Below are positions 39,401 through 64,000 of a DNA stretch of 64,000 nucleotides, one piece after another. The translations under genes and the position numbers were made by a program. Positions within the stretch are counted from its first letter, which is position 1, and each line of letters begins with the position of its first letter. The notes below the pieces were generated by a model, which saw nothing but the letters and a program-made list of their open reading frames with translations, was not told the origin of the DNA and searched no databases. Source of the DNA: Lingula anatina (Eukaryota; Animalia; Brachiopoda); NCBI GenBank assembly GCA_051362555.1, contig CM120647.1:496001-560000 (forward strand), read 5' to 3'.

Positions 39401-42288
39401 GTGTCTGAGAGCCACAGAGATTTCCTTCGTTTTCTCTGGTGGCCAACAGACGATTTTTCACTTGCCCCAGTCGACTACAGGATGAAGGTACATTTGTTTG
39501 GTGCCACCTCTTCTCCTGGGTGCTCAACCTATGGCTTCAGACAGATGGCGTTAGATTCTCATGCCAAGTTTGGAGATGGTGTTACCAATTTCTTGCTACA
39601 CAACTTCTATGTTGATGATGGATTGATATCCCTTCCTTCAGTTAATGAAGCCAGGAAGTTGTTAGTAGTATGAAGGCATGCAAAAATAGTGGTTTGCACC
39701 TTCACAAGTTCACTTCCAATAGGAAGGAAGTACTCGATGTTGTTGAGAAGGATGATAGGGCAGTAGAGGTCCAGAATATAAACCTAGACAAATCTGTTAT
39801 CGAACGTGTTCTAGGTGTCCAGTGGTGTATTCTATCAGACGCGTTTAAATTTAGGATAGTGGTGTCTGATAAGCCTTACACGAGAAGAGGGATTTTGTCC
39901 ACAGTTAATTCCGTTTTTGACCCCTTGGGATTTTTGGCTCCATTCATCCTGGTAGGGAAGCTTATCCTACAGGAATTATGCAAAGAAAACACTGATTGGG
40001 ACGCACCCCTAACAGATCACCTGAGGCCCATGTGGGAAAGATGGAGAGCTAGTCTCCCACTATTAGTAGATCTCGGTGTAGCTAGATGTTTTAAACCTGA
40101 CAACTTTGGTCTTGTAAAATCTGTTGCACTGCATCATTTTTCCGATGCAAGTGAGAAAGCCTATGGGCAATGTTCTTATCTCCAATTGATTGATGAAAAT
40201 GACTCTGTGCACTGCACGCTTGTCTGTGGGAAAAGTCGGGTGGCTCCTCTCAAGGTTTTGTCAATTCCTCGCATGGAGTTATTGGCTGCAACATTGTCAG
40301 TTCAGGTGAGTTCAGTTCTGACAAAGGAACTAGACATTCAGGACATACAGCACTTTTTTTGGACCGATAGTAAAGTTGTCTTGGGCTACTTAGCCAATGA
40401 AGCTCGCAGATTTAAGGTTTATGTTGCAAATCGTGTCCAATACATCCAAAATCAGTCAGAGATTTCTCAGTGGAAATATGTTGCCTCGGCAGACAACCCT
40501 GCAGATCATGCATCCAGGGGATTGCTTGCCTCTGACCTGGTTCAAAACAGCTTGTGGTTTTCAGGCCCTGCATTTCTTAGAGACCCTGAGTGTAACCAAG
40601 ATTCTGACAGTCCAAAAGTTGTAGATGAAAATGATCCTGAGGTTCGCTCAAAGAATGTTGCATTTGCTACTACTCACACAAATGATGCCCATGCTGAATT
40701 TGATTTGAATAGGTTCAGCCATGTGTCTAGTTGGGATAGACTTCTCAAGACAGTAGCTTTGTGTCTGAGGTTCAAAGAGATATTGCTCTCTAAAGTCAGG
40801 AAGAGAACCCTCAAATCAATTTCTGGACCACTGACAGTTGACAATTTACAAGAGGCCGAGAGCTGTGTTGTCAAATTAGTCCAAAGAGTCTCATTTAGAC
40901 TTGATTATGAAGCTTTACGTCGTATGAAATGTGCCCCTCGGTCTTCTAGAGACAAGAAGTCAAATCACCAGCTCCCTAGATCAAGTATAATACATCGTTT
41001 AGATCCATATATGGATGACGCAGGCATAGTCAGGGTAGGTGGTAGGATGCCAATTGCCTTGGGTATTGTAGCCCAACCTGCTATTATTCCTAGAAAAGGT
41101 CACATCACCTCACTCATAGTGAGACATTTTCACAGTGTGACTGGACATCAGGGTCGTGGAATGACCACAAATGCCATTAGATCACATGGACTATGGATAC
41201 TTGGTTGTAGCTCTGCTGTTTCCCAGCAGATATATCAATGTGTCCATTGTAGGAGAACACGTGGAGCTGTGCAAGAGCAGAAGATGTCAGATCTGCCATC
41301 AGACCGTGTTCAACCATTTCCTCCTTTTACCTATTGTGCTGTCGATTATTTTGGCCCGTTTTTGATCAAGGAAGGTAGAAAAGAACTGAAGAGGGATGGT
41401 GCTCTTTTCACTTGCCTTGCCTCAAGAGCAGTTCACATAGAAGTGTGTGATTCTCTCAACACTGATGACTTTATCAATGCTTTGAGAAGGTTCATAGCTT
41501 TGAGAGGTCCTGTAAGACAAATTTGTTGTGACCAAGGCTCAAATTTTGTTGGTGCACGGTCAGAGTTGTCAAAATGTGTCAAAGAAATGGAAATAGGTAA
41601 AATTCAGAATTACCTTTTCCACAAAAAATGTTACTTCATTACCTTTAAAATGAATGTCCCTACAGCGAGTCACATGGGGGGAGTTTGGGAGCGCCAGATA
41701 AGAACAGTCCGTTCTATCTTGAACTCTCTTTTATTGTCTGCAACATCCCAGTTGAATGATAGTGCTTTACGCACCTTTATGTCTGAGGTCATGGCAATTA
41801 TAAATTGCAGACCTTTGACTGTCGATTGTTTAAATGACCCAATGTCACCAGAACCATTGACTCCAAATCACATTTTAACTGGCAAATCCAGTGTGGTGTG
41901 CCCCCCACCTGGTGAATTTCAGAGAGAGGATCTTTACTTAAGAAAATACTGGAGACGTGTACAGTATTTAGCTGATCAATTTTGGAAGAGATGGAGCAAA
42001 GAATATCTATCTCAGTTGCAGTCTAGACAAAAATGGTGTAAGTTTAGAAAAAATCTGCAAATTGGAGACATTGTTTTAGTCAAGGATGAAAATTTGCCTA
42101 GAAACTCTTGGCCTCTAGCCAGAGTGCACAGTGTGTATCCAAGTGAGGATGGATACATTAGGAAAGTTCAAGTTGCAATGAGCACTAAATGTTTGGATTC
42201 TCGTGGTCGACGAGACAGTCCACTTATGCTTTTGGACAGGCCCATTCAGAAATTAGTATTCATAATGCCCAACCCAAACTTTGAATAA
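36430..42288 (+). pseudogene. BEL/Pao gag-pol polyprotein broken by two frameshifts (about 36740 and 39670)
   Basis: DUF1759-like gag (FDGSSLQYPSW), three zinc knuckles, protease ALLDTQS, RT (YIPHHGV, KIRVVFDC, FYVDD), RNase H (HFSDAS), integrase (H-H-C-C, DYFGP, DQGSNF, GGVWE) and C-terminal WPLARV. Spread over ORFs 36430-36759, 36713-39673 and 39670-42288. Confidence 0.93.
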
Positions 42289-42429
42289 AATGATTGCTAT
42301 AACCAGGGTGTATTCCCCGTCGGGAGCCAATGTTTTTCTCCTGCTACAACTGTCTGTTGATTGCATATGTATGATGTGCTGTGTATGACTTGCCACAACA
42401 CAATTTTGCTATTAATCTTTGAGCTATTT

Positions 42430-42700
42430 TGTAATGTTTAGAGATTCGTAATTGTTAACATTAGTTAACTAGTATGTAATGTTTAGAGATTCGTAATTGT
42501 TAATGTTAGTTAACTAGTATGTAATGTTTAGAGATTCGTAATTGTTAATGTTAGTTAACTAGTATGTAATGTTTAGAGATTCGTAATTGTTAACGTTAGT
42601 TAGTTAACTAGCATGTAATGTTTAGAGATTTATAATTGCAATTGTTAACGTTAGTTTAGTTAACTAGTATGCAATGTTTAATGATTCATAATTGTAAGTG
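42430..42700. repeat. About 45-bp tandem repeat in the BEL 3' untranslated region
   Basis: TGTAATGTTTAGAGATTCGTAATTGTTAA..TTAGTTAACTAGTA repeated about 6 times. Confidence 0.85.
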
Positions 42701-45431
42701 TTAAAGGTAGTATTGTTGCTTGACAAGCATCTGACATTAAATATCTTTAAAATATTGTTATATGCTGACATTAAATAGCTTATGAGAATTTCAAGTTTGT
42801 GGAAAATACAATTTTATGTAAATGTGTATTTTGAGGAGCCATGTAACAGTAACTACGCATGCGCTTCTCTTGTATATTGGATCCGATAGTGCTGCCACGT
42901 AGTGTCAATTTGCTTTTACTTGACAGCAGCACGCGTCCGACGTTCTTAGAAGGTTTAGGCCCCAAACGAGGTAAATCAAGATTTAATCTTTCATTATATT
43001 ATTATTTTTATTAGAAATCAAAACTTTGAAGTTATCGTCTCGATTTACAAGTTGTTTATCACTCAATTTCAGAATTATTGTTAGTTTAAGAAGTTTCCAT
43101 GTCAGCGTATGTGTTCGTAGGACTACATGTATGTTTTATGTTTATTTTAGTTCCACGGGAATAATATTTCGTCGGAACCGAATGGGAATAAAGATTTTAC
43201 CACCAACTTGATACAGTTTTTATTTATTTATTTAAAGACACGTGCTGCTACAATCACAGCAAAAGGAAACATGCATGATCAGCTCTGGTAGGCCAATAAA
43301 ACAACGAGAATTGAGCTTTGGTTAGTATCCTATGAGGAACAGACAAACAATATATTAAAATCCGGTTTCAAGAGAAACATCAATGCATGGGAACAAGTAA
43401 CATCAGACGAAAGTGGTATCTAAATACACAAACGAAGGAGTCTGCAAAACCAACTAGAAAGCAGCAGCTGCGCAGGTAGGCAAGAGGGATAATGCAAAAA
43501 AAAGTCCTAAAAGCAGCCCCCTTTTCTAGTTGACAGTGCCAGTGATCCTTCCTAGTACGATTTGGCCAGACAAGTTATACCAATAGAAATCCACAAGGCG
43601 ACTACATAGTTCTCATTGTTTCCAATGGACGAACAAGCACAAAACATTTACAGCATGTGACAACTACAGGAAAAGTCATCTTGGAATCATCTTAAAACAC
43701 CTTATGCCCTTTTTTATTATCTTATGTCACCAGAATAACACCAGAAATTAATTATGTACTTCCAAAATAGTAACAATTGATGAATTACAATCATATGAAA
43801 GTCCAACAGCTCAAAAAAGGTAAATTATGCCATAATTTTAAAATAGCGACAGGCTCTTGGATTTGAACAACAGAAAAACTAACAATAGTCACTTTAAAGT
43901 CAAATCAGCCATGCTGGTCTCTTGCACTTAATCTATGTCTGGCAAAATCATTTTAAAATTGTTATTTAACATATTTTTGGACTAATTTGACTTCAAGATG
44001 TATGCAAGCGAAGGTGAAGACGTAAGCCTATATTGATGTTGGGGCCTTTTAATATTTTCTTTTTGTATTATATCTCACAAGAGATAAGACACATGACTTC
44101 CAGAACTAAAATGATAAGAAACGATGTATAACATGCTAGTGTAAGAGCAAGAGCTTCAAATTGATGAGTTATGCCTTAGCCGTATTTCAAAATTGTGACC
44201 GGCGGCCATCTTGGATCAGAGGATCAAAATGGCTACCAATTGTCTCCAAAGCACCAAGTATGTGTTCTTTACCTTTAATTAAGCCATTTTGGTCTCTTAC
44301 ACTTGTTTCAAGCTTTTTAGAATGTTATAAAACATTTCGTACTAATTAGACTACATGACACATGTAAGTCTATGTGACAACTTAAGCCTACATGTATATT
44401 GATTTTGGAGGCTAAAATAGTTTGTACTCACATTTTATGAAACAGATAATGTATAATTCTGCACCAGAAAATAATATAAAGCGACATATTACTCATTAAC
44501 AAAGATGTAATACATATAGTTTCAAAATAGTGAATTATGCCCTATTTCGAAATGGTTTTTGCGGCCATCTTGGATTTAAGGGACAAAAAGGCCACCAATG
44601 ACCTCCATAATGGTAAAAATGAGTTCTCTCGCTCATAACATAGTCCAATATTGATGGTATATAACAAAAAAATTGCATTGAAATATATTTGAATATGGGT
44701 TATCAATACCCATGGTTCTGCAGCGTTCACACATATCTTGGTAGGCACTTAAAACACCCCCTTTGTCCTTTCAAATCACCTTCTATCACCAAAACAATAT
44801 CAAAAATGACTTTTTCACCACCAAAATAGTAGGAATCGATATATATATCAAGTACCTGTACATATAGACCAAGCGCTTCAAAATTCACCATAAAATAGCG
44901 AAATTATGTCCACTTTCAAAATGGCGGTTGGCGGCCATCTTGGATTTGAGGCACAAAATGGCCACCAATTGTTTCCATAATATCAGAAATGGGTTCCTTG
45001 TCCCTCATTTAGTCAGGTTTGATAATCTATACATGTTTCTAGGCCAAATATTAATGGAAATATGAAATATTAAATATTTTGGCACCAAATTGGCATAATT
45101 TAGAGGGCGTCTCTTTGGATAAAAAATTTTCTTTTGGCCCAAGGAACATTTATGCCAAGTTAGACATTTGTACTACAAAATGCAGCATTTGGCCAATTTT
45201 TGGTCCTTAACAAGCCTACTATCACTTTTCCATTATTAATGACTCATAGGGTTCTGATAGTGTTTAGCTTGCACAAATGTCCACAGCGCTCAATTAATGA
45301 TCGTGTTTCTATCAGACAATTCCGTGGTAACATATGTTCTTTCTTACGCTTTTTTTACTTCAAACGGTTATCACTTTATTTGCTTACAAAACAGAAACGC
45401 GTGGGCGTAAAATTGGGACATTTGTGGATTT

Positions 45432-47555: not shown

Positions 47556-49517
47556 TATATAAAATGTATTACCAAATACTGTATGTAAAGGTGAAGCAGT
47601 TTGTGTCTATGATGTACATATACTGTTGTATTGTAATGTCAGTCATCATACAGTTTATTTTAACCTTTTACTTTAGTACAGTGTATATATACTATAAAAT
47701 GTATTACCAAATACTGTATGTAAAGGTGAAGCAGTTTGTGTCTATGATGTACATATACTGTTGTATTGTAATGTCAGTCATCATACAGTTTATTTTAACC
47801 TTTTACTTAGTACAGTGTATATATACTATAAAATGTATTACCAGATACTGTATGTACAGGTGAAGCAGTTTGTGTCTATGATGTACATATACTGTTGTAT
47901 TGTAATGTCAATCATCATACAGTTTATTTTAACCTTTTACTTAGTACAGTGTATATATACTATAAAATGTATTACCAGATACTGTATGTAAAGGTGAAGC
48001 AGTTTGTGTCTATGATGTACATATACTGTTGTATTGTAATGTCAGTCATCATACAGTTTATTTTAACCTTTTACTTTAGTACAGTGTATATATACTATAA
48101 AATGTATTACCAGATACTGTATGTACAGGTGAAGCAGTTTGTGTCTATGATGTACATATACTGTTGTATTGTAATGTCAGTCATCACACAGTACAGTGTA
48201 TATATACTATAAAATGTATTACCAGATACTGTATGTACAGGTGAAGCAGTTTTTGTCTATGATGTACATATACTGTTGTATTGTAATGTCAGTCATCATA
48301 CAGTTTATTTTAACCTTTTACTTAGTACAGTGTATATATACTATAAAATGTATTACCAAATACTGTATGTAAAGGTGAAGCAGTTTGTGTCTATGATGTA
48401 CATATACTGTTGTATTGTAATGTCAATCATCATACAGTTTATTTTAACCTTTTACTTAGTACAGTGTATATATACTATAAAATGTATTACCAGATACTGT
48501 ATGTACAGGTGAAGCAGTTTGTGTCTATGATGTACATATACTTTTGTATTGTAATGTCAGTCATCATACAGTTTATTTTAACCTTTTACTTAGTACAGTA
48601 TATATATACTATAAAATGTATTACCAAATACTGCATGTACAGGTGAAGCAGTTTGTGTCTATGATGTACATATACTGTTGTATTGTAATGTCAGTCATCA
48701 TACAGTTTATTTTAACCTTTTACTTTAGAACAGTGTATATATACTATAAAATGTATTACCAGATACTGCATGTACAGGTGAAGCAGTTTGTGTCTATGAT
48801 GTACACATACTGTTGTATTGTAATGTCAGTCATCATACAGTTTATTTTAACCTTTTACTTTAGAACAGTGTATATATACTATAAAATGTATTACCAGATA
48901 CTGTATGTAAAGGTGAAGCAGTTTGTGTCTATGATGTACATATACTGTTGTATTGTAATGTCAGTCATCATACAGTTTATTTTAACCTTTTACTTTAGTA
49001 CAGTGTATATATACTATAAAATGTATTACCAGATACTGTATGTACAGGTGAAGCAGTTTGTGTCTATGATGTACATATACTGTTGTATTGTAATGTCAGT
49101 CATCACACAGTACAGTGTATATATACTATAAAATGTATTACCAGATACTGTATGTACAGGTGAAGCAGTTTGTGTCTATGATGTACATATACTGTTGTAT
49201 TGTAATGTCAGTCATCATACAGTTTATTTTAACCTTTTACTTAGTACAGTGTATATATACTATAAAATGTATTACCAGATACTGTATGTAAAGGTGAAGC
49301 AGTTTGTGTCTATGATGTACACATACTGTTGTATTGTAATGTCAGTCATCATACAGTTTATTTTAACCTTTTACTTAGTACAGTGTATATATACTATAAA
49401 ATGTATTACCAGATACTGCATGTACAGGTGAAGCAGTTTGTGTCTATGATGTACATATACTGTTGTATTGTAATGTCAGTCATCATACAGTTTATTTTAA
49501 CCTTTTACTTAGTACAG
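47556..49517. repeat. 134/135-bp tandem satellite, about 15 units
   Basis: Unit AAAATGTATTACCAGATACTGTATGTACAGGTGAAGCAGTTTGTGTCTATG...GTACAGTGTATATATACTAT. Two shorter variants at about 48185 and 49105. Confidence 0.97.
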
Positions 49518-49687
49518 ACAGTGTGTATATATATATATTAGTCACTCAGAAAAACAAATGTTGTCTCTTTCAGATAATTTGCCAATAGAAACCTTTGATT
49601 ATTATGCAATCATTGAGTAAGAAAAATTCTCTCTTACATTTCAGTTAGGACAGGAAGATAAATGTTCCAGTATAAGTGATAGTAACC

Positions 49688-52600
49688 ATGGCAACAGCAA
49701 GGCCCAGCCCTGATCAGGAGAATTTTTTTCGCATGAGTGTTTTAATCCTGGATTATGCCTTGAATGTATTGCAAGATGCTCTTCAGAAAGAACTTGAAAA
49801 AAGGTATCCCAATTTATTTGACCCGAGCACTGGGTTGTTATGTGGGGTGCTTGGTGATGGAACTGTCAGGACAAAACTGGATGGACTTGTACGATCAAGA
49901 GTACTTAATGTACACCAACAAAACCAGCTGTATCCTGGTGGAAACCCCTCCTCATCAGTAACTGTTGGCGATTTAGACATCACACTGACTGTGCTTTTGC
50001 TGAGAAACATCACAACATTGAATCCAAGTCCAGGGTTGAATGTATGGGACAACCCCTCTGACGGAGACACATCAAGAGAAGCTACGATTGGAAGAGTTAA
50101 AAGATATCGAAACATTGTGTATGGCCATGCTAACAAGGCAGCAATTAGTGATCAAGATTTCAGGGCACATTTCTCAGGGCTCAAGTCCAATTTGCTGCAT
50201 CTCTCTAGTATGTACACCAATGAGGACTATGATGCCATATTGTCTAAACCTCTTGATGCTGCTTTATTGGAGAGAAACCAGAGCATTCTGAAAGAATGGT
50301 ATGATAATGACAAAGATGTGAAAGATCAGTTGATGAACATGCAATCTACAATGGAAGAAATTCCTGAACAAATCATAAATGTGTTGAAAGGAAGTGAAGA
50401 AACTATTCTAAAGAAGATGGACAGTAACTCACGGAAAACACAAAATCAACATGAGGAAATCTCTCAAGGCATCACACAGATGGACATAGGTCAGTCAGAG
50501 ATGGCCGACCAACTCAGACAGTCACAGAAGTGCATTGAAGAGGTCAAAGATGCACAGAAACAAGACTCACAGAAAATACAAGCTCAGCTAGAAAAAGGAG
50601 CAGAAGAACGTGCATCTTTAAGATCAATGCTAGGTCAGCAATTCCAAATAACAAAAGGTATGATCATATGTATTTTATGGTTTAGACATTTTCTTTAATA
50701 TCAGTGAAATTTATGCACGGTTGAATTTCTGTGGTTGACATTCTGATTCAGGAACAACTCCATCTCTGACATTTTCTTGCCTCTAATTGAGTTTGAAATG
50801 TTTACAACATAACACTGCAGATAAAATACAACTTGAGACCTTCTATTTTGTTTTCAGAAATGCAAGAGAATGTCCAGACAATATGTGACAGATACCGAGA
50901 TACACCAGAATTTCAAAAAATTCCAGGTAGTATGCAGCAATAAATTCAAGCCAGAAGAAAGCTAACTGAATATTTTTTTATTAAACTTTAATTTTGAATA
51001 TAATAATAAGAAAACCCATGAGTGTATCATGCAAAATATAACTTAAGAGAATATAGGTGAAAGGTTTCACCAGGCAGCTTACTTTGTTACATTTCTCTTG
51101 AATCCTCCCCAAAACCAACTACCAAAAAGAATACATTCATATTGTAAAGTAGGGAAAAGTTCTGCAACTTGTATGTCATAGATTACTTTATGCCTATAAA
51201 ATTTCTTAATTTCAAATTCCAGGCTCAGTGGATGTCACTGTCCATATGAGCATCAGTCCTTCGGGAATGGAAGCAGTCAAATCATCAGCCATCTTCTCCA
51301 GTAGTCAGAAGACACCAAGTCCAGAGGACACTCAGCCAGACAGGGAAGCCTTATCCTCAGTGACAGGTGATGGAAGTGACACAAACCAGATCACTGGTAT
51401 ACCTCTTCACCTGGATGATCCACCAAGCAAGAATATTACTCAGACAGTGAACTCTAATGAAGCACCAACTGCCTCATCTCCTCCAGAAAATACCACCCCT
51501 CTATGTGAAGCCAGAGACTTACACTTCATGAAAATTAGTGATCTTGTACTGTCTAGAGCAACCAATTTTGAAGAAATTAAAATAGCATTTAAACTTCTAG
51601 AGAAACACCATGCAATGGTTTATGATACAAAGCGCCAGTGTTTTATCTTCCGCTTGGTTTGTCCGTCAGTGCACTCACTGGACCAGCTGTGGCAAAGTTA
51701 TCGCAGCGGTGAGCTACAGGCTGCTGCAGAGGAAGGTTTTGTCAGCATCAAGAACCTGGAGGAGTTGGGCCTGAGCCGAAAGGACATCACTTTGTGGGTA
51801 GAAATGGATGAAGATGATTACAGTGAATGTAGGAAATACATAAAGGAAAAGACAGAGTTGAAAGGTTTCAATTTTTTTTTTTTTGAACTTCATCTGAAAA
51901 GTTATATATATATATATATATATATATATGATATCAGATAAGAGATACTCCTTTGTCATTTATACTTTACTGCTTGCTCTATAGTATAATGTCAGTACTT
52001 CAAGTTGAGCTTTTATTTATTTATTTTTTTTAATTATTTTTTTTTTAATTTATGGTTAAGCTATTTAGTAAACGACCTCCCACACACACACACACTCAAA
52101 CAAACACACAGGCACTCTCATAGTAAATTTAAAGTATTTTTTTAAATCAGCAACAGGTTTAATGAATAAGTTATGAAGTCATGATAAATTATGATTAAAG
52201 ATCATAGTATTTATGAATTAAAACCCCTTTACTTTTGTTTCAACAAATTATAGCAATGATTTACGAAGACTTGAAGATGACAGTTCGTAAAGGTCCACAT
52301 GGCTGTGCAGAGCAGACTATATACGGCATACGTCAAGCCCTGATGGCAGCTTTCAGTCTACGGAAAGAAGACATTCTGATCAAATGGTGGGACTACGGCA
52401 GCCCTGGGGATTTGGCTGTCATATGTTATGGCATACAACCTCATCACGTGGATCACATTGAAGACAATATCCAGGATTTACCCAAAGATGTCCTCCATGA
52501 GCTTGGAGTATTGACCATCACCATCGGCACACAGACTTTACGAGTAGCAGGTCAGATATTTTACATTTATTTGCAACCTGTTAAGGCAGGAGGATATGTT

Positions 52601-55600
52601 CCAGTAGAAGTGACAGTAACCATGGCAACAGCAAGGTCCAGTCCTGACCAGGATAATTTTTTTCGTATGACTGTTTTAACTCTAGATTATGCCTTGAAAG
52701 TTTTGCAAGATGTTCTTCAGAAAGAGCTTAGAACAGAGTATCCTAATTTATTTGACCCGAGCACTGGGTTGTTATGTCGGGTGCTTGGTGATGCAACTGT
52801 CAGGACAAAACTGGATAGACTAGTACGGTCAAGATTGCTTAATGCACATCAACAAAACCAGCTGTATCCTGGTGGAAACCCCTCCCCATCAGTGACTGTT
52901 GGTGATTTAGACATCACACTGACTGTGCTTTTGCTGAGAAATATCACGACATTGAATCCACGTCCAGGGTTAAAATCATGGGACAACCCCTCTGACTTAG
53001 ACACATCAAGAGAAGCCACAATTGGGAGAGTTAAAAGATATCGAAATATCGTGTATGGCCATGCTAACAAAGCAGCAATCAGTGATCAAGATTTCAGGGT
53101 ACATTTTTCAGGGCTCAAGTGCAACCTCCTGTCTCTCTCTAGTAATTACACCAATGAGGATTATGATGCCATATTGTGTCAACCTCTTGATGCTGCTTTA
53201 CTGGAGAGAAACCAGATCATTCTGAAAGAATGGTGTGATTATGACAAAGATGTGAAAGATTGCTTGATGAGCATGCACGCTTCATTGAAGGAAAGTCACG
53301 AACAAATCATACATGGATTGAAAGAAGGTAAAACAAAGTTGCAGGACCATGTGGAACAGGTTCAAAAGAGAAGTGAAGACACTATTCTCAAGAAGATGGA
53401 CAGTGACACACGGAATACCCATAATCAACTTGAGGAAATCTCTCAAGGTATCACACAGATGGACATAGGTCAGTCAGAGATGACCGACCAACTCAGACAG
53501 TCACAAAGGTTCATGGAAGAGGTCAAAGATGCACAGGAAGAAGACTCACATAATATCTTAGCTCAGCTGGAAAAAGGAGCAGAAGAACTTGCATCTTTAA
53601 GATCAACGCAAGGTCTGCAACTCCAAATAACAAAAGGTATGACCATATGTATTTTATGGTTTAGACATTTTCTTTAATATCAGTGAAATTTATGCACGGT
53701 TGAATTTTTTTGGTTGACATGTTGATTCAGGAACAACTCTATCTTTGACATTTTCTTGACTCTAATTGAGTTTGAAATGATGTTTACAACATAACACTGT
53801 AGACAAAATACAACATGAGACCTTCAATTTTGTTTTAGAAATGCAAGAGAATGTCCAGACAATATGTGACAGAAACCGAGATACACCAGAATTTCAGAAA
53901 ATTCTAGGTAGTATGCAGCGATAAATTCAAGCTAGAAAAAAACTAATTGAGTATTTTTTAATTAAACTTTATTTTAGAATATAATGATAAGAAAACCCAT
54001 GAGTGTATCATGCAAAATATAACTTAAGAGAATGCAGGTGAAGGATTTTACCAGGCAGCTTACTTTGTTACATTTATGTTGAATCCTCCCCAAAACCAAC
54101 TACCAAAAAGAATGCATTCATATTGTGAAGTAGGGAAAAAGTTTTGCAACTTGTATGTCATAGATTACTTTATGCCTAAAATTTCTTAATTTCAAATTCC
54201 AGGCTCAGTGGATCTTGACATCCATATGAAAATCAGTCCTTCAGGAATGGAAGCAGTCAAATCATCAGCTATCTTCTCCAGTAGTCAGAAGACACCAAGT
54301 CCAGAGGACACTCAGCCAGACAGGGAAGCCTTAGCCCAAGTGACAAGTGATAGAAGTGACACAGACCAGACCACTGGTATACCACCTCACCCGGATGATG
54401 AGGCAAGCAAGAACATTACTCAGACAGTGAACTATAATGAAGCACCAACTACCTCATCAGCAGCTGTTCATGTGCCTCTTCCAAAAGATACCACCCCCCT
54501 GTGTGAAGCCAAAGACAGGAGCTTCCTCGTCATATGTGAACAATTAATATGTAACCTTGAAGACAAAGAAAAAGCAGTAAAACTGATGGAGAGATGCCAT
54601 GCAATGATTTATGATACAAAGTGCCAGTGTTTTATCATTCGCTTGGTTTGTCCATCAGTGCACTCACTGGACCAGCTATGGCAAAGTTATCGCTGCGGTG
54701 AGCTACAGGCTGCTGTGGAGGACAGTTTTGTCAGCACCAAGAACCTGGAAGATTTGGGCCTAAGCCAAGAAGATGTCAATCTCCGGGTTGAAATTGATGA
54801 AGATGATTACACCGAATGCAGGAAATACTTAAAGGAGAAAGCAGGATTTGAAGGTAACTATTTTTCATTTATGTAATTTTATTTAATTGAAATTGTCTTG
54901 AAAGAGACTTTGTACTACTATAAGGGGCAGATTCCTTTCCTTACCTTTTTATTCACCCTGCCCCCCTCCCCCCCCCAAAAAAAAAAAAAAAACATATCGA
55001 CCTGTAGCCAGATATTTCAAAAAGGGGGTTCTTTTTCTGAAACAAGTGGATCTGTATTCCATAAAAACGTCATGTACCTAAGATCAAATTTTACCCAGAG
55101 TGGACCTTTTCCCAGCAAAGGGGCGGTTCTTTCCAACCCCAGAACCCCCCTTGACTACGGACATGTATATATTGTTTAAAAATCAAAACGTAGAAGGGAA
55201 TATGTTAATTTAATATTAAATAAATCAATAAATAATAAATTAACATAATGATTAAAATATGATGCAAGACCTAAATACTATGTTATATAAGCCCTAGGCC
55301 ACACACTCAGTTGTCAGACCGTCTCATGTAATAATCAGCTACATATTTATTGTGGTGTCGACAGAGGAACTTTTAAAAGACATTTAAGGGGAAAGTTCAA
55401 CAGACGGTTGATGGCATTTAAATTCACAGGGTCCAATAAGACACTTTTTATGTACAGGCACAGGTGTGTCTGTACATATAGCCATCACCTGCGTCTTTCG
55501 TTGCCGACGTCAACATCGTCGACGTTGCCGTGCACTTTCATTGAAGATAACACACACCTGATGAATATTCATAATACACAGTCAAGTAAGATAATCAGCA

Positions 55601-58600
55601 TGATCTGGCCATTTTCATAAAAGTTATGCTGTTTTTTTTTCACTTTTTTCAGCATGTATACAACACAGATATAAAAAAAGTGGAAAAATATTTTACCAGT
55701 GACATTGAAAATTACAGAACTCATGAATATAATTGGTTTCTTTTTCTGTTGTACATTTTTTAATTTTTTTCCTTTCACGTATTGGCATTTTCAATTTGGG
55801 ACTTAGGGCGCATTCCCAGAGATTTAGATCGATCCAGAGATTTAGATTTAGATCGACCTAACTCCCTAGGGGTTCACGCAAAATTTCAGTCAGCCGAGCG
55901 CGCACCATAGTTAATTACCCCCTTACAGCAGGCGGGACAGACGCTTAGGCCAGCTAAGCCGACAGTAATCTAGTGAGACTCCCACATGGATAGATCGATC
56001 TAAAATCTATGGGAATGCGGTCTTATAGAGCTACCACGTGCATTTTAAAATGTCCATGTTATTAAAAGTAACTAATTGATGATAATTATCCAGTTACTCA
56101 ATATGTAATATTGTATCAAAATTGACAAAAAACTCCTTCATGCACTGTCACCACTAGAATGTATATTTCAATCATCATATTTAAAAAATGAATGTAGCTG
56201 CAGATAGTAAAATATATCCATTTGAATTCATGAAAGACTGACTTTGCTGCAGCTACCAATTCCATGTTTAAAAGATGAAACCGACCATGTTTTTTCAGAA
56301 ATCTATGAAATTCCACTTTTATTTAAAATTGCATAAAAATGTCATTTGTTGCCCGCTCATTTTTTTTTTTTTTTTTTTTTTTTTTTGCTTTGCATAGCTT
56401 TCTAGTTTAAACTACGCTCCATGTTTTGGAAAATCAACAAAATGCTTTTTATTGCCATCCTTTTAAAACTTTACATACACTTAAAAGTAGATTTATCCCC
56501 TTAAATATATTTTTTTGGAGCGTACCTGATGTTGATATTTCCATTGGAGCTTTTAGAAAAAAGGTTCCTGTTATAATGACTGACCAGTCACTTAAACATA
56601 AAACCAACCTTCATAAATGTTATCAAAGGTGGTATCCAAGTGCAAAGAGGCAAAGATAAACTATTCACGAGCAAGAGAATTTGCCTTTTCCCCTTTTTCC
56701 CACAGTGGGAACTCAAGAACTGGATTTCTTTCTTTCGAATGGGATTAGGAAACCATGCAATTTTTATACCTTGCTAACTTACATGTAAATCCACAACGAT
56801 CGGTTTATCAGGTTTAGAAAAAGAAACAACATGTTTTTTTTGGCAGAAAAAGAAAGTTTGCATTTGCAACGTATGTTTGATCTTATAAAATAAAGTTTGC
56901 ATTTATTTGGAAAATTAATGAATATTAATGTGGGGTAACTGGCAAGGTGCTGTGATGTTATTGAAAGAGGGTCCTACGCTAAGTGTTTGTGCAGACATTT
57001 ATATTCCACAGGAGTAAAAGTAGTAAAAGGAGTAAATGTATCAAACACCAGTATATATAGGTTTTTAATGGCTCTGAAATTTCCCTAAGTTGCACTGCGA
57101 GGGAATATTTTATCCATTTCCATCCTTAAATATTTCCTAATGGCCTACGTTCACTTGATTCTCTGATTTTTAAAGGCAGTTTCGCCAACATGTTCCTGGG
57201 AAAGTTTGGAAGCAACCCGATAGACCTTCAGGCTCCTACATCTTAAGCCTCGGTCACAACCGGACGCACGAATTTCAGGATCGTATGTCTCCTGCGATTT
57301 TTGGGTGTTGCGGAGGCCGTGGAGTTCGTTGATGTAGAGGAAAGTCTGACTTGCTAGTCGCAAGGGCCACATGAGATGTCCTTTCAAGCAGGGACGCTAA
57401 TTGCAAGGAGCAATGGCCGTGAGTTTGTCTTGCTTCCTGTGTACGTGGTTCACACTCACCACTTACAGAGGGAATGCAACGCATGGCGAAAGTAGTGCCC
57501 TTTTGCGTCAGTTTTGCTTCACACTTGCCTCACACGTTTGCGAACGTCAGTTTTGCTTTCAGTTCTCTTCTTTTGAAATCGTTGAGACATTGGAGAGTAT
57601 ATGTAACTCATGCTTTATTTCAAACGTTCAGTTCAGTAACAATTTGCCATTCACATCGCTTATGTCGGTACAGCAAATGGACAAGTCAACAAATCAGCAT
57701 GACAGCAAGCAAGGTTTTGAAGTTGATAATCAAACTAATGCGTTCTCGTATTTAACATTTACTGTATTTTTAAATATTATTAAAATATTAATGGCCACAC
57801 CCTACCAGGTGCTCTATCTTATATACCAATTTTTTACCTTTATTATTTATACATACAACTAATAAATACACTTTGCAAACACATTTGATAAGATAAAGAC
57901 TTACATTATGATTTCTCCGCAGAACGGTTACATACATCATACTACGTTGGGAAATACGGTAAACTGCAGGAGAGACCCTACTTGTACAGATTCCTGTAGC
58001 GTTATGACTCGGTAACATTCAAAATAGGCGCGCTACTCACGCAAGTAATGAAAACTACTCACAACTAACTGGTACATCTAAAACAAGGAATCTAGTACTT
58101 ACACCTTGTTTATATAAAGCAAGGAATCTGGCACTAACACTTCTTCCCCCTCCCTTTTTCTACTATGTAAGCTTCTTTCTCCTGTCTTATGGAGGCATAT
58201 CAGAAACTAAATTAAGCAAAATTTTTGAAAATTGTTATACACGTTACACAGTCGACGTTCATTGTAAAGACACGAGCGTGCGTCGTGAGCACGACTTTTA
58301 TACACCAGGCGTGGGGGTAACGCACGTGCGATGCATTCTCGGTGTGCTCTCGAATTTGTTCGTTAATTGTGAGGGCGTGCGCCTTACTCAACACGCAAAG
58401 GGCACTTGATCCTTCATTGCTTATGACGTGCGTCTTGCACAACGAGCAATCTCTCTTGCCATCTCCGTGCGAGGGGAGCAAGTTACGCTTGCGCCTTTGC
58501 TGTTCGCAGGCTATTCGTAGAATCTTTTAGACATGTCCAACATCCTCCGCACGTGCTTACGGGCTGTCTGGGAACTGGAAATTTCGTAAGAAGGACCTAC

Positions 58601-58920
58601 GTGGGACGTGAGATTCTGCGCAAAATTTGGACGCAAACAGCCCGTAAGAGCCCGTACAGCCGGTTGTCGGACCGAGGCCTTAGGTAAAACCTCCTTCAGA
58701 AAGGACGCCCTCCAGTGTAAAGGGGCCTTAAGGATATTGTGACCCTTCGCCCATAACTCCTTATTTACTGCCTTACATACATTCTTTTGGATAATAAATA
58801 AAACTTCTGTGTTCAGTGACTACAATTGTGACTAAATTAATTAACACACACACAGTCACACACACACAGTCACACACACACTAATACATATATATAACAT
58901 GCGTGTCGTTAACGGAGTGC

Positions 58921-58959
<39 letters not shown>

Positions 58960-59514
58960 ACTTGAGACGTATGAACCCCAAATCTGAGTTTCACGGCATA
59001 GCCATAAGGTATGCCGGATCATCAGGAGGTGTTTACCTTTCGTCTTTTACTTCCTTTCTTTGTTCATGCTCATTTATTTAATGTGTTTGGAGTGATTTAA
59101 AGTTTTAAAAAGTTACCCTTATCATTACCTTCTTATTTTCATGACAAAATATTCACTAACAAGAATGACATAATATCATTACTGTCATCATTATACCTTT
59201 TTGTTAACAAATACCAGAAATAGATTATGAAGACTTGAAGATGACAGTTCGTAAAGGTCCATATGGCAGTGCAGAGCAGACTATACACGGCATACGCCGA
59301 GCCCTGATGGAAGCTTTCAGTCTACGGAAAGAAGACATTCTGATCAAATGGTGGGACTATGGACGTCCTGGCGACTGTGCTGTCATATGTTATGGTATAC
59401 AACCTCATCACGTGGGTCACATTGAAGGCAACATCCAGGATTTACCCAAAGATGTCCTCCGTGAGCTTGGAGTATTGACCATCACCATCGGCACACAGAC
59501 TTTACGAGTAGCAG
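49688..59514 (+). CDS. Orphan multidomain protein [DZIP3-like HEPN - coiled coil - linker - TRADD-N-like - alpha/beta domain] x2; 3' end not resolved
   Basis: Kozak-context ACCATGG at 49688 preceded by an in-frame TAA. Exons 49688-50657, 50858-50926, 51223-51864, 52254-53636 (possible 54-nt intron 52551-52604), 53839-53907, 54203-54853 and 59218-59514, all GT-AG, phase 1 and open (about 1340-1360 aa). HEPN motifs DLDITL..LLRN and R..RNIVYGH. TRADD-N-like motif F.L.CPS..SL..LW..Y.SG.L. Confidence 0.8.
55805..56022. mobile_element. MITE (family of 22411-22613) nested in a HINE-like remnant
   Basis: GCGCATTCCCAGAGATTTAGATCGATC...GATCGATCTAAAATCTATGGGAATGCG inverted ends. Confidence 0.65.
57246..58679. 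mobile_element. PIF/Harbinger-like non-autonomous element in the last visible intron of the HEPN gene
   Basis: TTA|AGCCTCGGTCACAACCGG ... CCGGTTGTCGGACCGAGGCC|TTA: TIR with 3-bp TTA duplication. Confidence 0.7.
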
Positions 59515-60337
59515 GTCAGATATTTTACATTTATTTGCAACCTTAACTTATATAATACTAAAAATGGTATGTCCAATAAAAAATATTGAACATAAAACAC
59601 TTTCTAAAATACATTTTCAAGAGCTGCATTACTATTAAATTTTTGGATGTAGATGGTAAAATCAATGAATTTACTGAAAAGTGAATAAAAAAGTCCTTGA
59701 GGTTGTCACTGTTCTCGGTTTCGGCACTTTGAATACCTGGGCATTTCATATTTTATAAAATGTTCACTCCATGTTGATAAAAGGTGGTGAATTTCGTGGT
59801 CACATGTGTACATTTTTGTAGCATTTTTACACCACTCATGGCACCAACCTTGTAGTGGTATAGTATTAGTTGTTTGAAGTGCTTCTTGGGATGGAATTCC
59901 AGGATACAATATTAAAAAAATCTTTTTAATGGATTCTTATTGATTACTAAGTCTGTTGGTGGGGCTAAGGTGCTAAACCTGCTATGCATACCCCACCATT
60001 GGTCTTTATATTGCCATGTTAATGCTTGGTAACTCATTCATTTCTATGGAAGTCCGCTGTACAGATGATAATCATCCCATATAGTAAACACAATGTTGGG
60101 ACAAATCCAAAAATGTACTCATCAAAAGGCCCCCGGATTTCCATGCCATTCCATTCCATTCCATTCCTGCCACGCCGGTTTGTTTGAGAAGAGTAAATAA
60201 AGTGTATCCATTGAGACTGTCCACTGAGACTGGGTTTCATGTAGATCAGGTGTACTTAGGCCTATTTATCTCAGGATAGGTCATACCTGAATGTAAGGCT
60301 TAAAAAGACTGCAGTTTTACCCTTACAATTTATTTGG

Positions 60338-60338
<1 letters not shown>

Positions 60339-60402
<64 letters not shown>
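60339..60402. repeat. (TA)n microsatellite
   Basis: Direct reading of the sequence. Confidence 0.97.
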
Positions 60403-60404
<2 letters not shown>

Positions 60405-61144
60405 GGAAATGTTGATGGCCTAACTTTGAGAAGTCATATACAGTTTCTTAGGATTTCTTAAAATTTGTCATTTTGTTGTTGGTTGACCATTCGTCTGTTT
60501 TATTTGCTGCCGCTTTTAGGGTGTCAGGTGATGAGAAGGTATCTTGTGTTGTAACCGGTGGTATCGCTGCTCTGATCATCTAGTTTCCATTTCTTCCCAC
60601 CTTCAAAAATACATATGAAGATAGGAGGCATGTCAAATCATTGCTTGAAACTGTTAAGTACATTGTAACAAATCGCTCCTCTTTAGTGATCAATAGGGCT
60701 TTCACGGTTCTTTGTCTCAGGCCAAAGTATCCTTTGCTCCCCTGCTTTCATTTCATCAACCTTCTGGATTCTCTGCACCACCTGTGCATTTCACATGTCC
60801 TAAAGAATTCACATGGTTGGTTTTTTTTTTCTGTGATCTAACTTGTAGTGGTTCCAGCTACTTATAAAACCCTTTCATCTGACAAATTTTCATAACTTTG
60901 AAAAAGCTCAAAAGGTTTTTTGTCATTACTTCCTGAAATGTGATATTTGAACAAACATTACCTGTTTACTTTCCGCACTTAACATATTGGAGGGGAAGGT
61001 TGGGTGGAACTTCTAAAAGTTTTAGTCTGACCCGTCTTGTATGGCTCTACCGGCAACTTATGCTGTAGGCTCTGTAGGCAATGCATTCTGTAGGCAGATA
61101 CAAGTTACTGTTACTATTTCCTATCCAAGAATACAAGGGTTTTT

Positions 61145-61420
61145 GTTCTCAGCTCTTGGAATTAGGTCACATATAATCTCAACTTGACCACCCTTTGATA
61201 TAGTCTCTGTCAGTTTATTCACCTAGGCATGACACTGTACACAAGGCACCCTTGTCGATATTGTTGAAAATTAAATGCTACATTTATCCCCTAAACCAAT
61301 AGAATTATGGGAAAAGTTAATATAGAAATCTGACTGAAAGTCATATGTGGATATTGTATACTTGTCTTGGGCTTGATCTTTGAACTTTTGGATTAACTTT
61401 AAGGTCAAGTGGCCAAAATG
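61145..61420 (+). mobile_element. Decayed fragment of the HINE family seen at 2032 and 5031
   Basis: TTAGGTCAC.TATAATCTCAACT, CACCCTTGTC, AAAATTAAATGCTA, TTATGGGAAAA, AAAGTCATATGTG and AAGGTCAA are colinear with about 2175-2430. Confidence 0.65.
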
Positions 61421-62679
61421 CTGATTGCACTATAACCCAACTTTGTGGATACCTAATACCTTGGCAGTGTTGCACCTTGCTCTAGGCTGAAAGGCAGCCT
61501 CCCAAACGTGACCTGTCATGGTTTGTTTGCTTCTTACGATTAACAATTTAATGAATTTGAAGGGAGGTTTTTCAAGTTGTTTTCGTGAATTTCTCAAACG
61601 CATATCAGTTTGTGATCCATGCTTGTCAACACCCCGGATCCACTAACCTCTAAAGGATGAGTGCGAATAACCATTGGCAAAGTGCCCATTGTCAAAATTT
61701 AAAAATAATTTGCTATTATTAAGTTTATGCATATATTTGTTGCACGGAAAAAAATATTATTTGGTTTGAGGTATTGTATCTTAGTATTTTTAATGAGTTA
61801 TATGTGGGGGAGGGAGTAGCTGGATTTACCTGTTGTATGCAGTCTAATGAATCAGAGCAACTTGTTTCAGCATTTATATTACATAAACGATTTTTTCTAA
61901 TGAAACTTGTCTTGTGATGTAAAAAAAAGAGTTATATGTTAAATAATTGTGGTGTTGCACAAGTAAATGGGAAAGTAATTATTGTCTTTTTTAATCCTAG
62001 AGAAGAAAGGGAGGGGTGGTATATTACGGTATTTTCTCACAGAAGCCATCACTAATTTCACTTAACTGTATAAAAGTCTAGTTACTAGAAAAACTTGTTT
62101 CAGCGTATTTATTGATTTTATATAACTTTTCTCACAGACCAGCATTTGTTGGTCTAAATAATTGTATTTTTAACCAATACACATTTTGTACAAGGCTCTA
62201 AGGAATAGTAAAAAATGCTAAAAGCAAAAGGCTGTTACAGTACGTAACAACAACAAAAAAATCATGTGTAAAAGCACTCTAAACAGCTATTTGGAATGTT
62301 TCCATAAACCATAAAATAAACAAGGTATAAATTGTACCAAAATAATGATAAGGTATAACTAAAAACTAAATGAAAATATAGTACACATAATAACAGTTAT
62401 GACCAATAATCTGCATGACAATGAAATTAAATCACCTAAAAAGTACTTCATATATGATTGTGTATGTGATAAAGACCTTGTGTAGAATGCAATGCATGAG
62501 TTATTTTATACAAAATACAGTATACAAATATGAGTATAAAATGTATAATGAAACAATGGATAATTAATCAGATGTGCTGTCCGAAACACTTTTTGTCTTG
62601 CTAATACTGTCACCACTTGATGTTGGTAAATGTGAGGTATCCAAACAGCCTTCTCCACAATATAATTTTCGATTGTATC

Positions 62680-63030
62680 CCTGCCTCATGGCAAACCCCA
62701 TATACCACAGGACTGAAGTGATATGTGCACAACTTCCAACTGTCTTGGAACCAGCTTTACACTGTCAGTACCAGCGACTGATGGGTCTAGTTTTGCTATG
62801 GGAGGTCTGAATCCATAATGTGTACTGGTGGCTAGATGTGTGTCTTAATTAACTATTTTGGCTCTGATTAAATCGGGTGCATCCTCGCATACACTGATTT
62901 CAAACTGGCCATCTAGCAGATGCTCATCAGTATATCGGCTAGCTTGCTTTATCTGGTAAACTTCTGGTATTTATTATAGGCTGGTGGTCTCTTGTATGGA
63001 CTATTTACCAAGTCAATAGGTTTTCACTGA
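62680..63030 (-). pseudogene. Decayed transposase C-terminal fragment with SWIM-type zinc finger (ISL2EU/Harbinger-like)
   Basis: Reverse strand reads LIRAKI...HQYTLWI...ISRWY*QCKAGSKTVGSCAHITSVLWYMGFA, with stops. Confidence 0.55.
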
Positions 63031-64000
63031 TTTCCTTGACAAATAAAGTCATTCATAGCATTTTGGTGAAAAAAAAAAAAGAAGAAAAAAACTCTCCAAA
63101 GCTACTATGAAAAGTGCTGGTGTGGAGGATAAGGTCATAAGTAACAAAACAAGGGTGTGTGTGATGAAGACTTTTATTTTACTTTTTATGCAAAATAGAC
63201 ATAAAAGGGGACATTTACACAACAATTTTGGTTGTACAAAATGTACTTTTATGCCCATTAGAGGGGGTTGGGTCAAGCCACCCTTATGTGTAGATGTCTA
63301 TTACAGCATGGGTCTCTATATAAAGATACCGTACTAGGATTAAGAATGTGTACATTTACCCCGTGGACAATTTGAAGATTACACTGCGATTAATGCGGTG
63401 GAAAATACAATAGAGAGAGTGTATAATGATAGGGTCGCTAAATGATTGTTGACGGCATATAGTAACTAGCCTAATCCCCTGGTCGCCTGGGTAGCCACGC
63501 CCCCTTAGAGTACTTATGTAAACAAACGGTCTCCCGTAGCGAACTATCCTTTTGTTCAACAGCTTCGCGCGTGCAGCTGATTATGTATGTAGTGACGTGA
63601 CACTATAGCTAACTGCATATAAATTTGTGCTAACTGTTATTTGATTCATTCTGCTGTGTCGGATGTTGTGGATCAGCCCACTGGTTCGTTGACTTATGTT
63701 TTTCTGAAGATTGGTGGTGCAGATTTTGAGTGCTTAATTATTTACCCTCCTTCTAACAAGAGAAAGGGGAAGGGAGATAAAAAGAGAGAGTGTTAAATGA
63801 AACGGGTAATGAGTAATACATTACATTAAATAAAGGGACTCGCGGTGGAAGAAACGATAGACTGTTTTGCATCAAGGTATGCCATTATAATCCGACATGG
63901 CCCATAACATGATCCATAACATGACTCATTGTTGTATGCCTTATATTTGTGCCGACTTATATTTTACTCTCGTTCATTTCGTGAAACTATTTCCTTGAAT

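What the first reader, a model, noticed from the sequence alone, without database searches (positions are those of the whole stretch)
49688..59514. Candidate animal immune RNase: two HEPN domains plus TRADD-N-like adaptor domains in one chain
Seen: an intact spliced ORF with two copies of a module. Its first domain has the DZIP3-like HEPN signature (ENFFRM..., DLDITL..LLRN, PS..DTS.EA.I.R...RN..YGH), with the R-x5-H motif intact in both copies (50108-50128 and 53042-53062). A coiled coil follows, then an S/T/P linker, a TRADD-N-like domain (CFIFRLVCPSVHSLDQLWQSYRSGEL...EDDYSEC) and a second alpha/beta domain (IRQALMAAFSL...DYGS...LGVLTITIG) that may be a diverged TRADD-N. Established: HEPN RNases (RNase L/Ire1 KEN, Cas13, bacterial toxins) form a composite active site from two HEPN domains, and TRADD-N domains are adaptors in animal death signalling and in bacterial anti-invader systems. 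Inference: this is a lineage-specific defence effector. TRADD-N contacts could gate the RNase, and the duplication could allow an intramolecular, Cas13-like HEPN pair. I do not recognise this architecture as a named gene.
Basis: partly seen in the sequence, partly recalled or inferred. Interest (0 to 1): 0.85.

Follow-up and report, generated by a model that had tools for sequence, protein, structure and literature searches.

The report
Doubled brachiopod HEPN–TRADD-N immune cassette
Two intact, back-to-back copies of an already catalogued brachiopod immune module (a likely RNA-cutting HEPN domain, a coiled coil and TRADD-N-type adaptor domains) sit here; the two HEPN domains are predicted to pair, but they would share one protein chain only if a good splice signal is ignored, which no RNA read showed.

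Summary
Two units of four exons are intact. Each has a DZIP3-like HEPN domain (Pfam E about 1e-40, motif RNIVYGH), a coiled coil, a TRADD-N domain and a second domain predicted to have the same fold. The architecture is not new: the nearest relatives are three Lingula anatina proteins that Kaur et al. 2021 list as HEPN + coiled coil (or ankyrin) + TRADD-N fused to a RIG-I-like helicase, an SF2 helicase or an AIG/IIGP GTPase. Their table also holds a coral protein with two HEPN + coiled-coil units. What is particular here is the junction: unit 2 lost its splice acceptor and follows unit 1 in frame. A two-HEPN chain (1360 aa or more) needs read-through of a donor that paralog transcripts use; splicing at that donor skips HEPN2, also in frame. 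No read crossed the junction, but only 2 of 194 reads were 99% or more like this locus, so the test is weak. Isolated HEPN1 and HEPN2 are predicted to dimerise with the motif region at the interface (0.78 against control 0.02), which fits pairing in cis or in trans equally. No sensor exon lies in the window.

The parts
49645..50657 (+). Exon A1: short 5' UTR, ATG at 49688, HEPN1 and coiled coil
   Evidence: Acceptor and donor read from the sequence; PF18738 E 1.7e-40, residues 51-195; in-frame stop upstream of the ATG
50108..50128 (+). HEPN1 motif RNIVYGH (R141, H147)
   Evidence: Translation
50858..50926 (+). Exon B1 (69 nt, end of coiled coil)
   Evidence: GT/AG, phase 1; tblastn to paralogs
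51223..51864 (+). Exon C1: S/T/P linker and TRADD-N domain (DEDD2 clade; about 51510-51863)
   Evidence: ESM Atlas 0.95; weak Pfam PF20694 E 0.0099; 70-83% identical to paralog domains that Kaur et al. label TRADDN-DEDD2
52254..52550 (+). Exon D1: second alpha/beta domain, likely a diverged TRADD-N
   Evidence: AlphaFold2 pLDDT 82; TRADD-N 1f3v_A Z 6.8, rmsd 2.8, 91 aligned, tied with SEA and eEF1B domains; C-to-D splice seen as a loose end in 3 reads, from this locus or a paralog
52551..52621 (+). Junction: D1 donor GT, 29 nt of intron, breakpoint at 52579/52580, 42 nt of exon-A 5' UTR without its acceptor; open and in frame
   Evidence: Self-blastn; translation and shuffles
52622..53636 (+). 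Former exon A2: HEPN2 and coiled coil
   Evidence: PF18738 E 3e-39; 89% DNA identity to A1
53042..53062 (+). HEPN2 motif RNIVYGH
   Evidence: Translation
53839..53907 (+). Exon B2; its acceptor is the in-frame partner for the D1 donor if A2 is skipped
54203..54853 (+). Exon C2: linker and TRADD-N domain, closest to the IIGP paralog
   Evidence: PF20694 E 0.04; tree support 100/99 with P0003
59218..59514 (+). Exon D2: second alpha/beta domain; ends at a phase-1 donor. If the donor is unused, the frame stops at TAA 59544-59546, with AATAAA at 59575

Best explanation
This is a real tandem pair of a known brachiopod immune cassette (HEPN, coiled coil, TRADD-N, and a second domain that is likely TRADD-N-like), likely joined by a rearrangement between two already diverged paralogs, and its main product is probably a chain with one HEPN domain that would act as an RNase by pairing with another chain. 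Shown: the exons, motifs, domain assignments, the junction and the paralog architectures. Inferred: the spliceosome uses the D1 donor as paralog transcripts do; because exon A2 has lost its acceptor, D1 joins exon B2 in frame and HEPN2 is removed (998 aa up to the end of D2), while read-through gives at most a second isoform with both HEPNs. Inferred mechanism: as in the paralogs, a C-terminal sensor (RIG-I-like helicase, SF2 helicase or IIGP GTPase there; not found in this window) clusters on an invader signal, the coiled coils bring two HEPN domains together, the composite R-x5-H site cuts viral or host RNA, and the TRADD-N domains act as the protein-interaction switch proposed by Kaur et al.
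For: Three paralogs carry the cassette once, N-terminal to an NTPase (labelled so in PMC8195603 source data). The D1 donor matches the consensus at 7 of 9 positions, the joint best of the 8 donors in this gene. Five reads in run X2 leave exon D into the next exon of the helicase paralog, so the homologous donor is used. Depth in the intron-derived bin 52551-52585 is 0 in 3 of 4 runs and under 0.3 per strand in the fourth, too little for any read to span it. The skip is in frame with no stop. The units are mosaic: unit 2 TRADD-N groups with the IIGP paralog (100/99), unit 1 with the helicase paralogs, so the junction may be much younger than the divergence between units. HEPN1-HEPN2 model: ipSAE 0.78, best of 3 controls 0.02, pLDDT 87, runs agree in at least 90% of contacts; this mark was reached by 51 of 78 solved and 2 of 108 mismatched microbial pairs, and by 71 of 105 solved and 2 of 126 unrelated eukaryote pairs; the symmetric interface holds N142 and 146-152 of both chains.
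Against: The junction is in frame and open, which shuffles give about 0.11 of the time, and the unit-1 version of the UTR (44 nt, with stops) would not allow it. A2 is fully intact with its motif, although it would be intron under this reading; neutral decay spares it 80% of the time at 0.5% divergence but only 7% at 6%. The RNA test is weak: 2 of 194 laid reads were 99% or more alike, so most come from paralogs or distant alleles. No sensor exon was found in 59515-64000. No RNase assay exists for this protein, and the complex score may reflect likeness to solved HEPN dimers.
Confidence: 0.5

Rival explanations
1. One reading: the D1 donor is mostly read through, giving one chain of 1360 aa or more (1370 aa if it ends at the TAA after D2) in which HEPN1 and HEPN2 pair in cis, held in check by the TRADD-N domains, possibly without a sensor.
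For: Open in-frame junction, chance about 0.11. A2 has no acceptor or promoter space of its own yet is intact. The breakpoint falls directly before the TAA that closes the homologous read-through frame after D2, and an AATAAA follows that stop. The two domains are predicted to dimerise. dN/dS between units is 0.30 for HEPN and 0.45 overall. A coral protein is annotated with two HEPN + coiled-coil units.
Against: Good donor, used in paralogs; no read across the junction. AATAAA/ATTAAA occurs 5 times in 860 nt there, so it is weak evidence. The dN/dS may predate the junction, since the units are mosaic and introns (93-94% identical) are closer than exons (85-89%). The complex model used isolated domains that are 87% identical and cannot tell cis from trans; the motifs are 683 residues apart in the chain.
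Confidence: 0.3
2. A recent, perhaps haplotype-specific deletion fused two neighbouring paralogs and removed the sensor of the first; the product is silent or without function and has not yet decayed.
For: Almost no reads match this locus closely, and the D2 bin had zero depth in 4 of 4 runs at 92% likeness. No database protein reaches 90% identity in any domain. Two of the paralogs are consecutive accessions on a contig of the same length, as in a tandem cluster.
Against: All eight exons and their splice sites, apart from the A2 acceptor, are intact, and coding indels are in frame. The runs come from other individuals, so low likeness need not mean silence.
Confidence: 0.15
3. The junction is an assembly misjoin between two paralogous loci or haplotypes.
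For: No independent DNA or RNA read across the junction was seen.
Against: The breakpoint is sharp and lies in unique sequence with no long repeat at it; misjoins usually fall inside repeats (general knowledge).
Confidence: 0.05

Closest known systems
Lingula anatina HEPN + coiled coil + TRADD-N (DEDD2 clade) proteins LOC106177707 (SF2/DEAH helicase), LOC106165417 (RIG-I-like receptor), LOC106165415 (AIG/IIGP GTPase); Kaur et al. 2021, PMC8195603, Figure 4-source data 1
   Same: Same cassette in the same order; 78-87% identity in HEPN, 68-83% in TRADD-N, 83-89% in the exon-D domain; identical RNIVYGH motif.
   Different: One cassette each, followed by a sensor. Here the cassette is doubled and no sensor is seen in the window. 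The paper's table does not annotate the exon-D domain.
[quoted passage not shown]
   Same: Two HEPN + coiled-coil units with a TRADD-N domain in one annotated chain.
   Different: No second TRADD-N unit is listed; I saw only the table row and did not check its sequence, motifs or transcript.
DZIP3/hRUL138-like HEPN family (PF18738; Anantharaman et al. 2013, PMC3710099; pearl oyster expansion, PMC9646362)
   Same: Profile match, R-x4-6-H motif with Asn after Arg, lineage-specific expansion, fusion to immune domains; Lingula NACHT, CARD and TPR fusions were also found.
   Different: TRADD-N adaptors rather than NACHT/LRR in this chain.
Cas13 (cis HEPN pair) and RNase L / Ire1 / Las1 / Csm6 (trans pair)
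   Same: Composite active site from two HEPN motifs (passages of 10.1101/760058 and PMC12165695); the predicted dimer fits this.
   Different: No guide RNA or CRISPR context; cis pairing is not shown. The single-cassette paralogs point to the trans mode.

Membership tests
DZIP3-like HEPN (PF18738) | Profile score above the curated cut-off | tested here: met
   138.6 and 134.5 bits against 27
DZIP3-like HEPN (PF18738) | R-x4-6-H motif, typically with Asn after Arg | tested here: met
   RNIVYGH in both units
HEPN RNases | Two HEPN domains pair with the motifs at the interface | tested here: met
   Prediction only: ipSAE 0.78 against best control 0.02; N142 and 146-152 of both chains in the interface; R141 itself not named
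HEPN RNases | R/H-dependent RNA cleavage | not testable with these tools
   Needs a bench assay
TRADD-N, DEDD2 clade (exon C domain) | Homology to curated TRADD-N members | tested here: met
   68-83% identity to paralog domains listed as TRADDN-DEDD2; ESM Atlas 0.95, 219 of 256 features, 10 of the ten best family hits agree. Pfam PF20694 alone stays under its cut-off (16.1 and 14.2 against 23.7 bits).
TRADD-N, DEDD2 clade (exon C domain) | RRM-like alpha+beta fold | tested here: inconclusive
   AlphaFold2 model unusable (pLDDT 52.6, 5-row alignment)
TRADD-N, DEDD2 clade (exon C domain) | uS motif at the beta2-beta3 turn (Ser sometimes Cys; PMC8195603 section 8) | tested here: inconclusive
   Gln-Cys at the matching place in 5 of 5 rows, placed by eye against the paper's alignment; Cys is allowed, Gln is not a tiny residue
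TRADD-N (exon D domain) | RRM/ACT-like alpha+beta fold | tested here: met
   Model pLDDT 82 with beta-alpha-beta-beta-alpha-alpha-beta order; top rows are ferredoxin-like folds
TRADD-N (exon D domain) | Specific kinship to TRADD-N rather than to SEA, ACT or eEF1B | tested here: inconclusive
   1f3v_A Z 6.8, rmsd 2.8, 91 aligned, tied within 1 Z with SEA (7.3) and eEF1B (6.9); no Z of 8 or more; no Pfam hit at E up to 1; Gly-Ser at the beta2-beta3 turn in 2 of 5 rows, Gly-Arg in 3; resemblance by eye to rows of the paper's alignment
Kaur et al. HEPN + coiled coil + TRADD-N + variable sensor proteins | N-terminal HEPN, coiled coil, TRADD-N | tested here: met
Kaur et al. HEPN + coiled coil + TRADD-N + variable sensor proteins | Variable C-terminal sensor or effector (absent in some listed coral members) | tested here: inconclusive
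   No match to paralog C-termini in 59515-64000; the gene may continue beyond the window
Cas13-like cis HEPN pair | Both HEPN domains in one polypeptide | tested here: inconclusive
   Open reading path exists; no read across the junction, but the reads are mostly from paralogs
Cas13-like cis HEPN pair | Pairing within one chain | not testable with these tools
   The joined 1360-aa chain could not be folded; isolated domains cannot tell cis from trans

The most novel reading that the evidence does not exclude
A rearrangement has created an animal RNase with an intramolecular HEPN pair: an alternative 5' splice site switches between a one-HEPN form that must be clustered to cut RNA and a two-HEPN form that is pre-paired in cis and restrained by four TRADD-N-type domains.
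Probability: 0.27. Interest if true: 0.7.

Novelty: new variant of a known kind. Interest (0 to 1): 0.38.

Why it matters
The family is predicted to couple invader sensing directly to RNA destruction in one protein (one paralog joins HEPN to a RIG-I-like receptor), and my searches listed no bench test of a DZIP3-like HEPN domain. The predicted dimer gives a concrete construct and residues to test. The locus also shows how these cassettes are shuffled: all exon borders are phase 1, and the units are mosaics of different paralogs. If the two-HEPN chain is real and pairs in cis, it would be an uncommon animal parallel to Cas13; if not, this is one more copy in a catalogued expansion.

Tried and rejected
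No whole genome is held for this window, so sequence beyond 64000 could not be read. No RNA holder was listed for the stretch; only runs with the same species label were offered. The first read lay was dominated by repeats and listed no joint of this gene among the 15 joints shown (82 more not shown). Two upstream-exon loose ends have no match in the window at up to 3 mismatches, so they come from other loci. Search of 1.84 billion representatives with the exon-D domain gave 9 hits at E up to 0.001: one is the IIGP paralog; the other 8 are long repeat proteins scored over 4-13 stretches and were rejected as spurious (sequences of 3 of the 8 inspected). ESM Atlas gave no hit of 0.9 or more for exon D. 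BLASTP and hhalign between the exon-C and exon-D domains found nothing. The exon-C structure model was unusable and was not searched. TRADD-N was not among the 50 rows shown by the wide fold search or the Foldseek rows. No solved structure matches HEPN1 by sequence. The third homolog search covered only proteins of 2677-5000 residues and found nothing, so no deeper HEPN alignment was obtained. Predicted interface residues are not clearly more conserved than the rest of the domain (34 of 39 against 141 of 162 between units). Splicing D1 to the AG sites at 52586 or 52590 was judged unlikely because the introns would be 35 and 39 nt (size limit from general knowledge). Trees for HEPN and exon D were largely unresolved.

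Full report
Observation. The region 49645-59514 holds two units of four exons, A-B-C-D, with GT/AG borders, all in phase 1. Both units translate without stops. Exon A encodes a DZIP3-like HEPN domain (PF18738, E 1.7e-40 and 3e-39) with RNIVYGH at the stated coordinates, followed by a segment with helical periodicity above shuffles. Exon C encodes an S/T/P-rich linker and a domain that Pfam matches only weakly to TRADD-like_N (16.1 and 14.2 bits, cut-off 23.7) but that the ESM Atlas places with TRADD-like_N clusters at 0.95. Exon D encodes a 97-residue domain with no Pfam match.

Relatives. The exon-C search returned 3 of 432 candidates and the exon-A search 7 of 3527. All are named Lingula anatina, so the window likely comes from a Lingula; none reaches 90% identity in any domain. 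Three carry the whole cassette once at the N-terminus, followed by a DEAD/DEAH-family helicase (LOC106177707), a RIG-I-like receptor (LOC106165417) or an IIGP GTPase (LOC106165415). The other four join the HEPN domain to CARD, NACHT or TPR domains.

Literature. Kaur et al. 2021 (PMC8195603; I read passages, sections 8, 11 and 13, rows of Figure 4-source data 1, which was cut when stored, and parts 198-199 of 200 of the alignment archive) list these three proteins as HEPN + coiled coil (or ankyrin) + TRADDN-DEDD2 + sensor. They also list coral HEPN + coiled coil + TRADD-N proteins (24 of 210 HEPN places seen) and Orbicella XP_020616738 with two HEPN + coiled-coil units. Among the 60 of 65 Lingula places I saw, none has two HEPN domains. 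They propose that TRADD-N is a switch that unleashes fused effectors. Passages of PMC3710099 and PMC9646362 describe the DZIP3-like family as expanded in animals, with a putative RNase motif. Passages of 10.1101/760058 say that HEPN nucleases need two domains, usually in trans and in cis in Cas13; passages of PMC12165695 report twelve further protein clusters with an intramolecular HEPN dimer. Passages of PMC8998645 and PMC8662601 cover varied N-termini of invertebrate RIG-I-like receptors and HEPN-NLRs. Gerdol et al. 2018 was seen only as a citation. Searches listed no bench test of a DZIP3-like HEPN; one search found only Kaur et al. for HEPN, TRADD and Lingula together.

The exon-D domain. 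It is confined to these Lingula proteins in my searches (8 of 9 hits rejected as repeat artefacts). AlphaFold2 gives a beta-alpha-beta-beta-alpha-alpha-beta domain at pLDDT 82. Fold searches return ferredoxin-like folds; human TRADD-N (1f3v_A) scores Z 6.8, rmsd 2.8, 91 residues aligned, tied with SEA and eEF1B domains, and nothing reaches Z 8. Gly-Ser sits at the beta2-beta3 turn in 2 of 5 copies, where Kaur et al. place the uS motif, and the sequence pattern resembles rows of their alignment by eye. I put a second, diverged TRADD-N at about 0.6. The paper's table does not annotate it.

The junction. Self-comparison shows the repeated segment starts at the last base of the A1 acceptor (49644) and ends 29 nt into the intron after exon D (52579 and 59543). 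Unit 2 therefore has no acceptor, upstream exon or promoter of its own. Two in-frame readings exist. Read-through of the D1 donor gives 1360 aa to the end of D2, with motifs at 141 and 824. Use of the donor with the B2 acceptor gives 998 aa with one HEPN. For read-through: an open in-frame 42-nt spacer arises about 0.11 of the time in shuffles, and the unit-1 UTR would not permit it. Against: the donor matches the consensus at 7 of 9 positions, joint best in this gene, and paralog transcripts splice at the homologous place. Reads from run X8 that align from 52582 after a foreign upstream exon, with no indel listed, suggest that a normal paralog already has the unit-2 type of UTR, so the open frame need not have been selected after the join (inference).

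History. Introns AB and BC are 93-94% identical between units, exons A and C 89% and 85%. The TRADD-N domain of unit 2 groups with the IIGP paralog (100/99) and that of unit 1 with the helicase paralogs (5 rows). The units are thus mosaics, and a deletion or unequal exchange between diverged paralogs fits at least as well as a plain duplication. dN/dS of 0.30-0.66 by region shows past constraint but does not date the junction. An intact A2 is expected if the junction is young.

Expression. Five runs with the same species label were laid (4 per call, of 9 listed). Exon bins had depth 0-2.6 at 92% likeness, and the D2 bin had none. Over 52131-53180, 194 reads were laid and 2 were 99% or more alike. 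The intron-derived bin had depth 0 in three runs and 0.26/0.23 in the fourth, against 0.7-4.3 in the bin before. The family is transcribed, on the + strand sense in the two stranded runs; expression of this locus and its isoform remain open.

Structure of the pair. Isolated HEPN1 and HEPN2 (201 residues each) fold as a symmetric dimer with ipSAE 0.78 in three runs against a best control of 0.02, pLDDT 87, contacts agreeing at 90% or more; the mark was reached by 51 of 78 solved and 2 of 108 mismatched microbial pairs and by 71 of 105 solved and 2 of 126 unrelated eukaryote pairs. N142 and residues 146-152 of both chains lie in the interface. This supports an ordinary HEPN dimer, may reflect likeness to solved HEPN dimers, and says nothing on cis against trans.

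Mechanism and verdict. The most likely working is sensor-driven clustering that pairs HEPN domains through the coiled coil and cuts RNA, with TRADD-N domains as interaction switches; every step after the domain assignments is inferred. No sensor exon was found before 64000. I give 0.5 to a mainly one-HEPN product, 0.3 to the two-HEPN chain as main product, 0.15 to a silent young fusion and 0.05 to a misjoin. An earlier, unchecked note of this scan describes a mussel gene with two HEPN domains (e1-9376574), which suggests such doubling recurs. The finding is a new variant of a catalogued kind; interest 0.38.

Noticed in passing
window 35013-43252 (+): Pao/BEL LTR retrotransposon with two long ORFs (36710-39673, 39649-42288; DUF1759, Peptidase_A17, integrase) and 418-bp LTRs 96.9% identical, 6.4 kb upstream of the gene. 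Kaur et al. note retrotransposons near DEDD2-clade TRADD-N genes.
   Followed up: partly
P0002 (LOC106165417, XP_013399073): Paralog that joins an intact HEPN motif, TRADD-N and a complete RIG-I-like receptor: a candidate one-protein dsRNA-triggered RNase. Already tabulated by Kaur et al.; no test seen in my searches.
   Followed up: partly
P0005 (LOC106172698): HEPN-CARD-NACHT paralog with Gln in place of the motif Arg (QNIVYGH), a possible inactive HEPN.
   Followed up: no
window 47558-49517: 134-bp tandem array, about 15 copies, ending about 130 bp before the A1 acceptor.
   Followed up: no
window 17007-17336 (-): Exon of a pyrroline-5-carboxylate reductase-like gene (PF14748, E 1e-4, below cut-off).
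   Followed up: no
window 25987-27132 (+): 381-aa acidic, E/D/N-rich open frame with no Pfam match.
   Followed up: no
window 54854-59217: The intron before D2 is 4.4 kb against 0.39 kb in unit 1 and holds repeats that attract many RNA reads.
   Followed up: no
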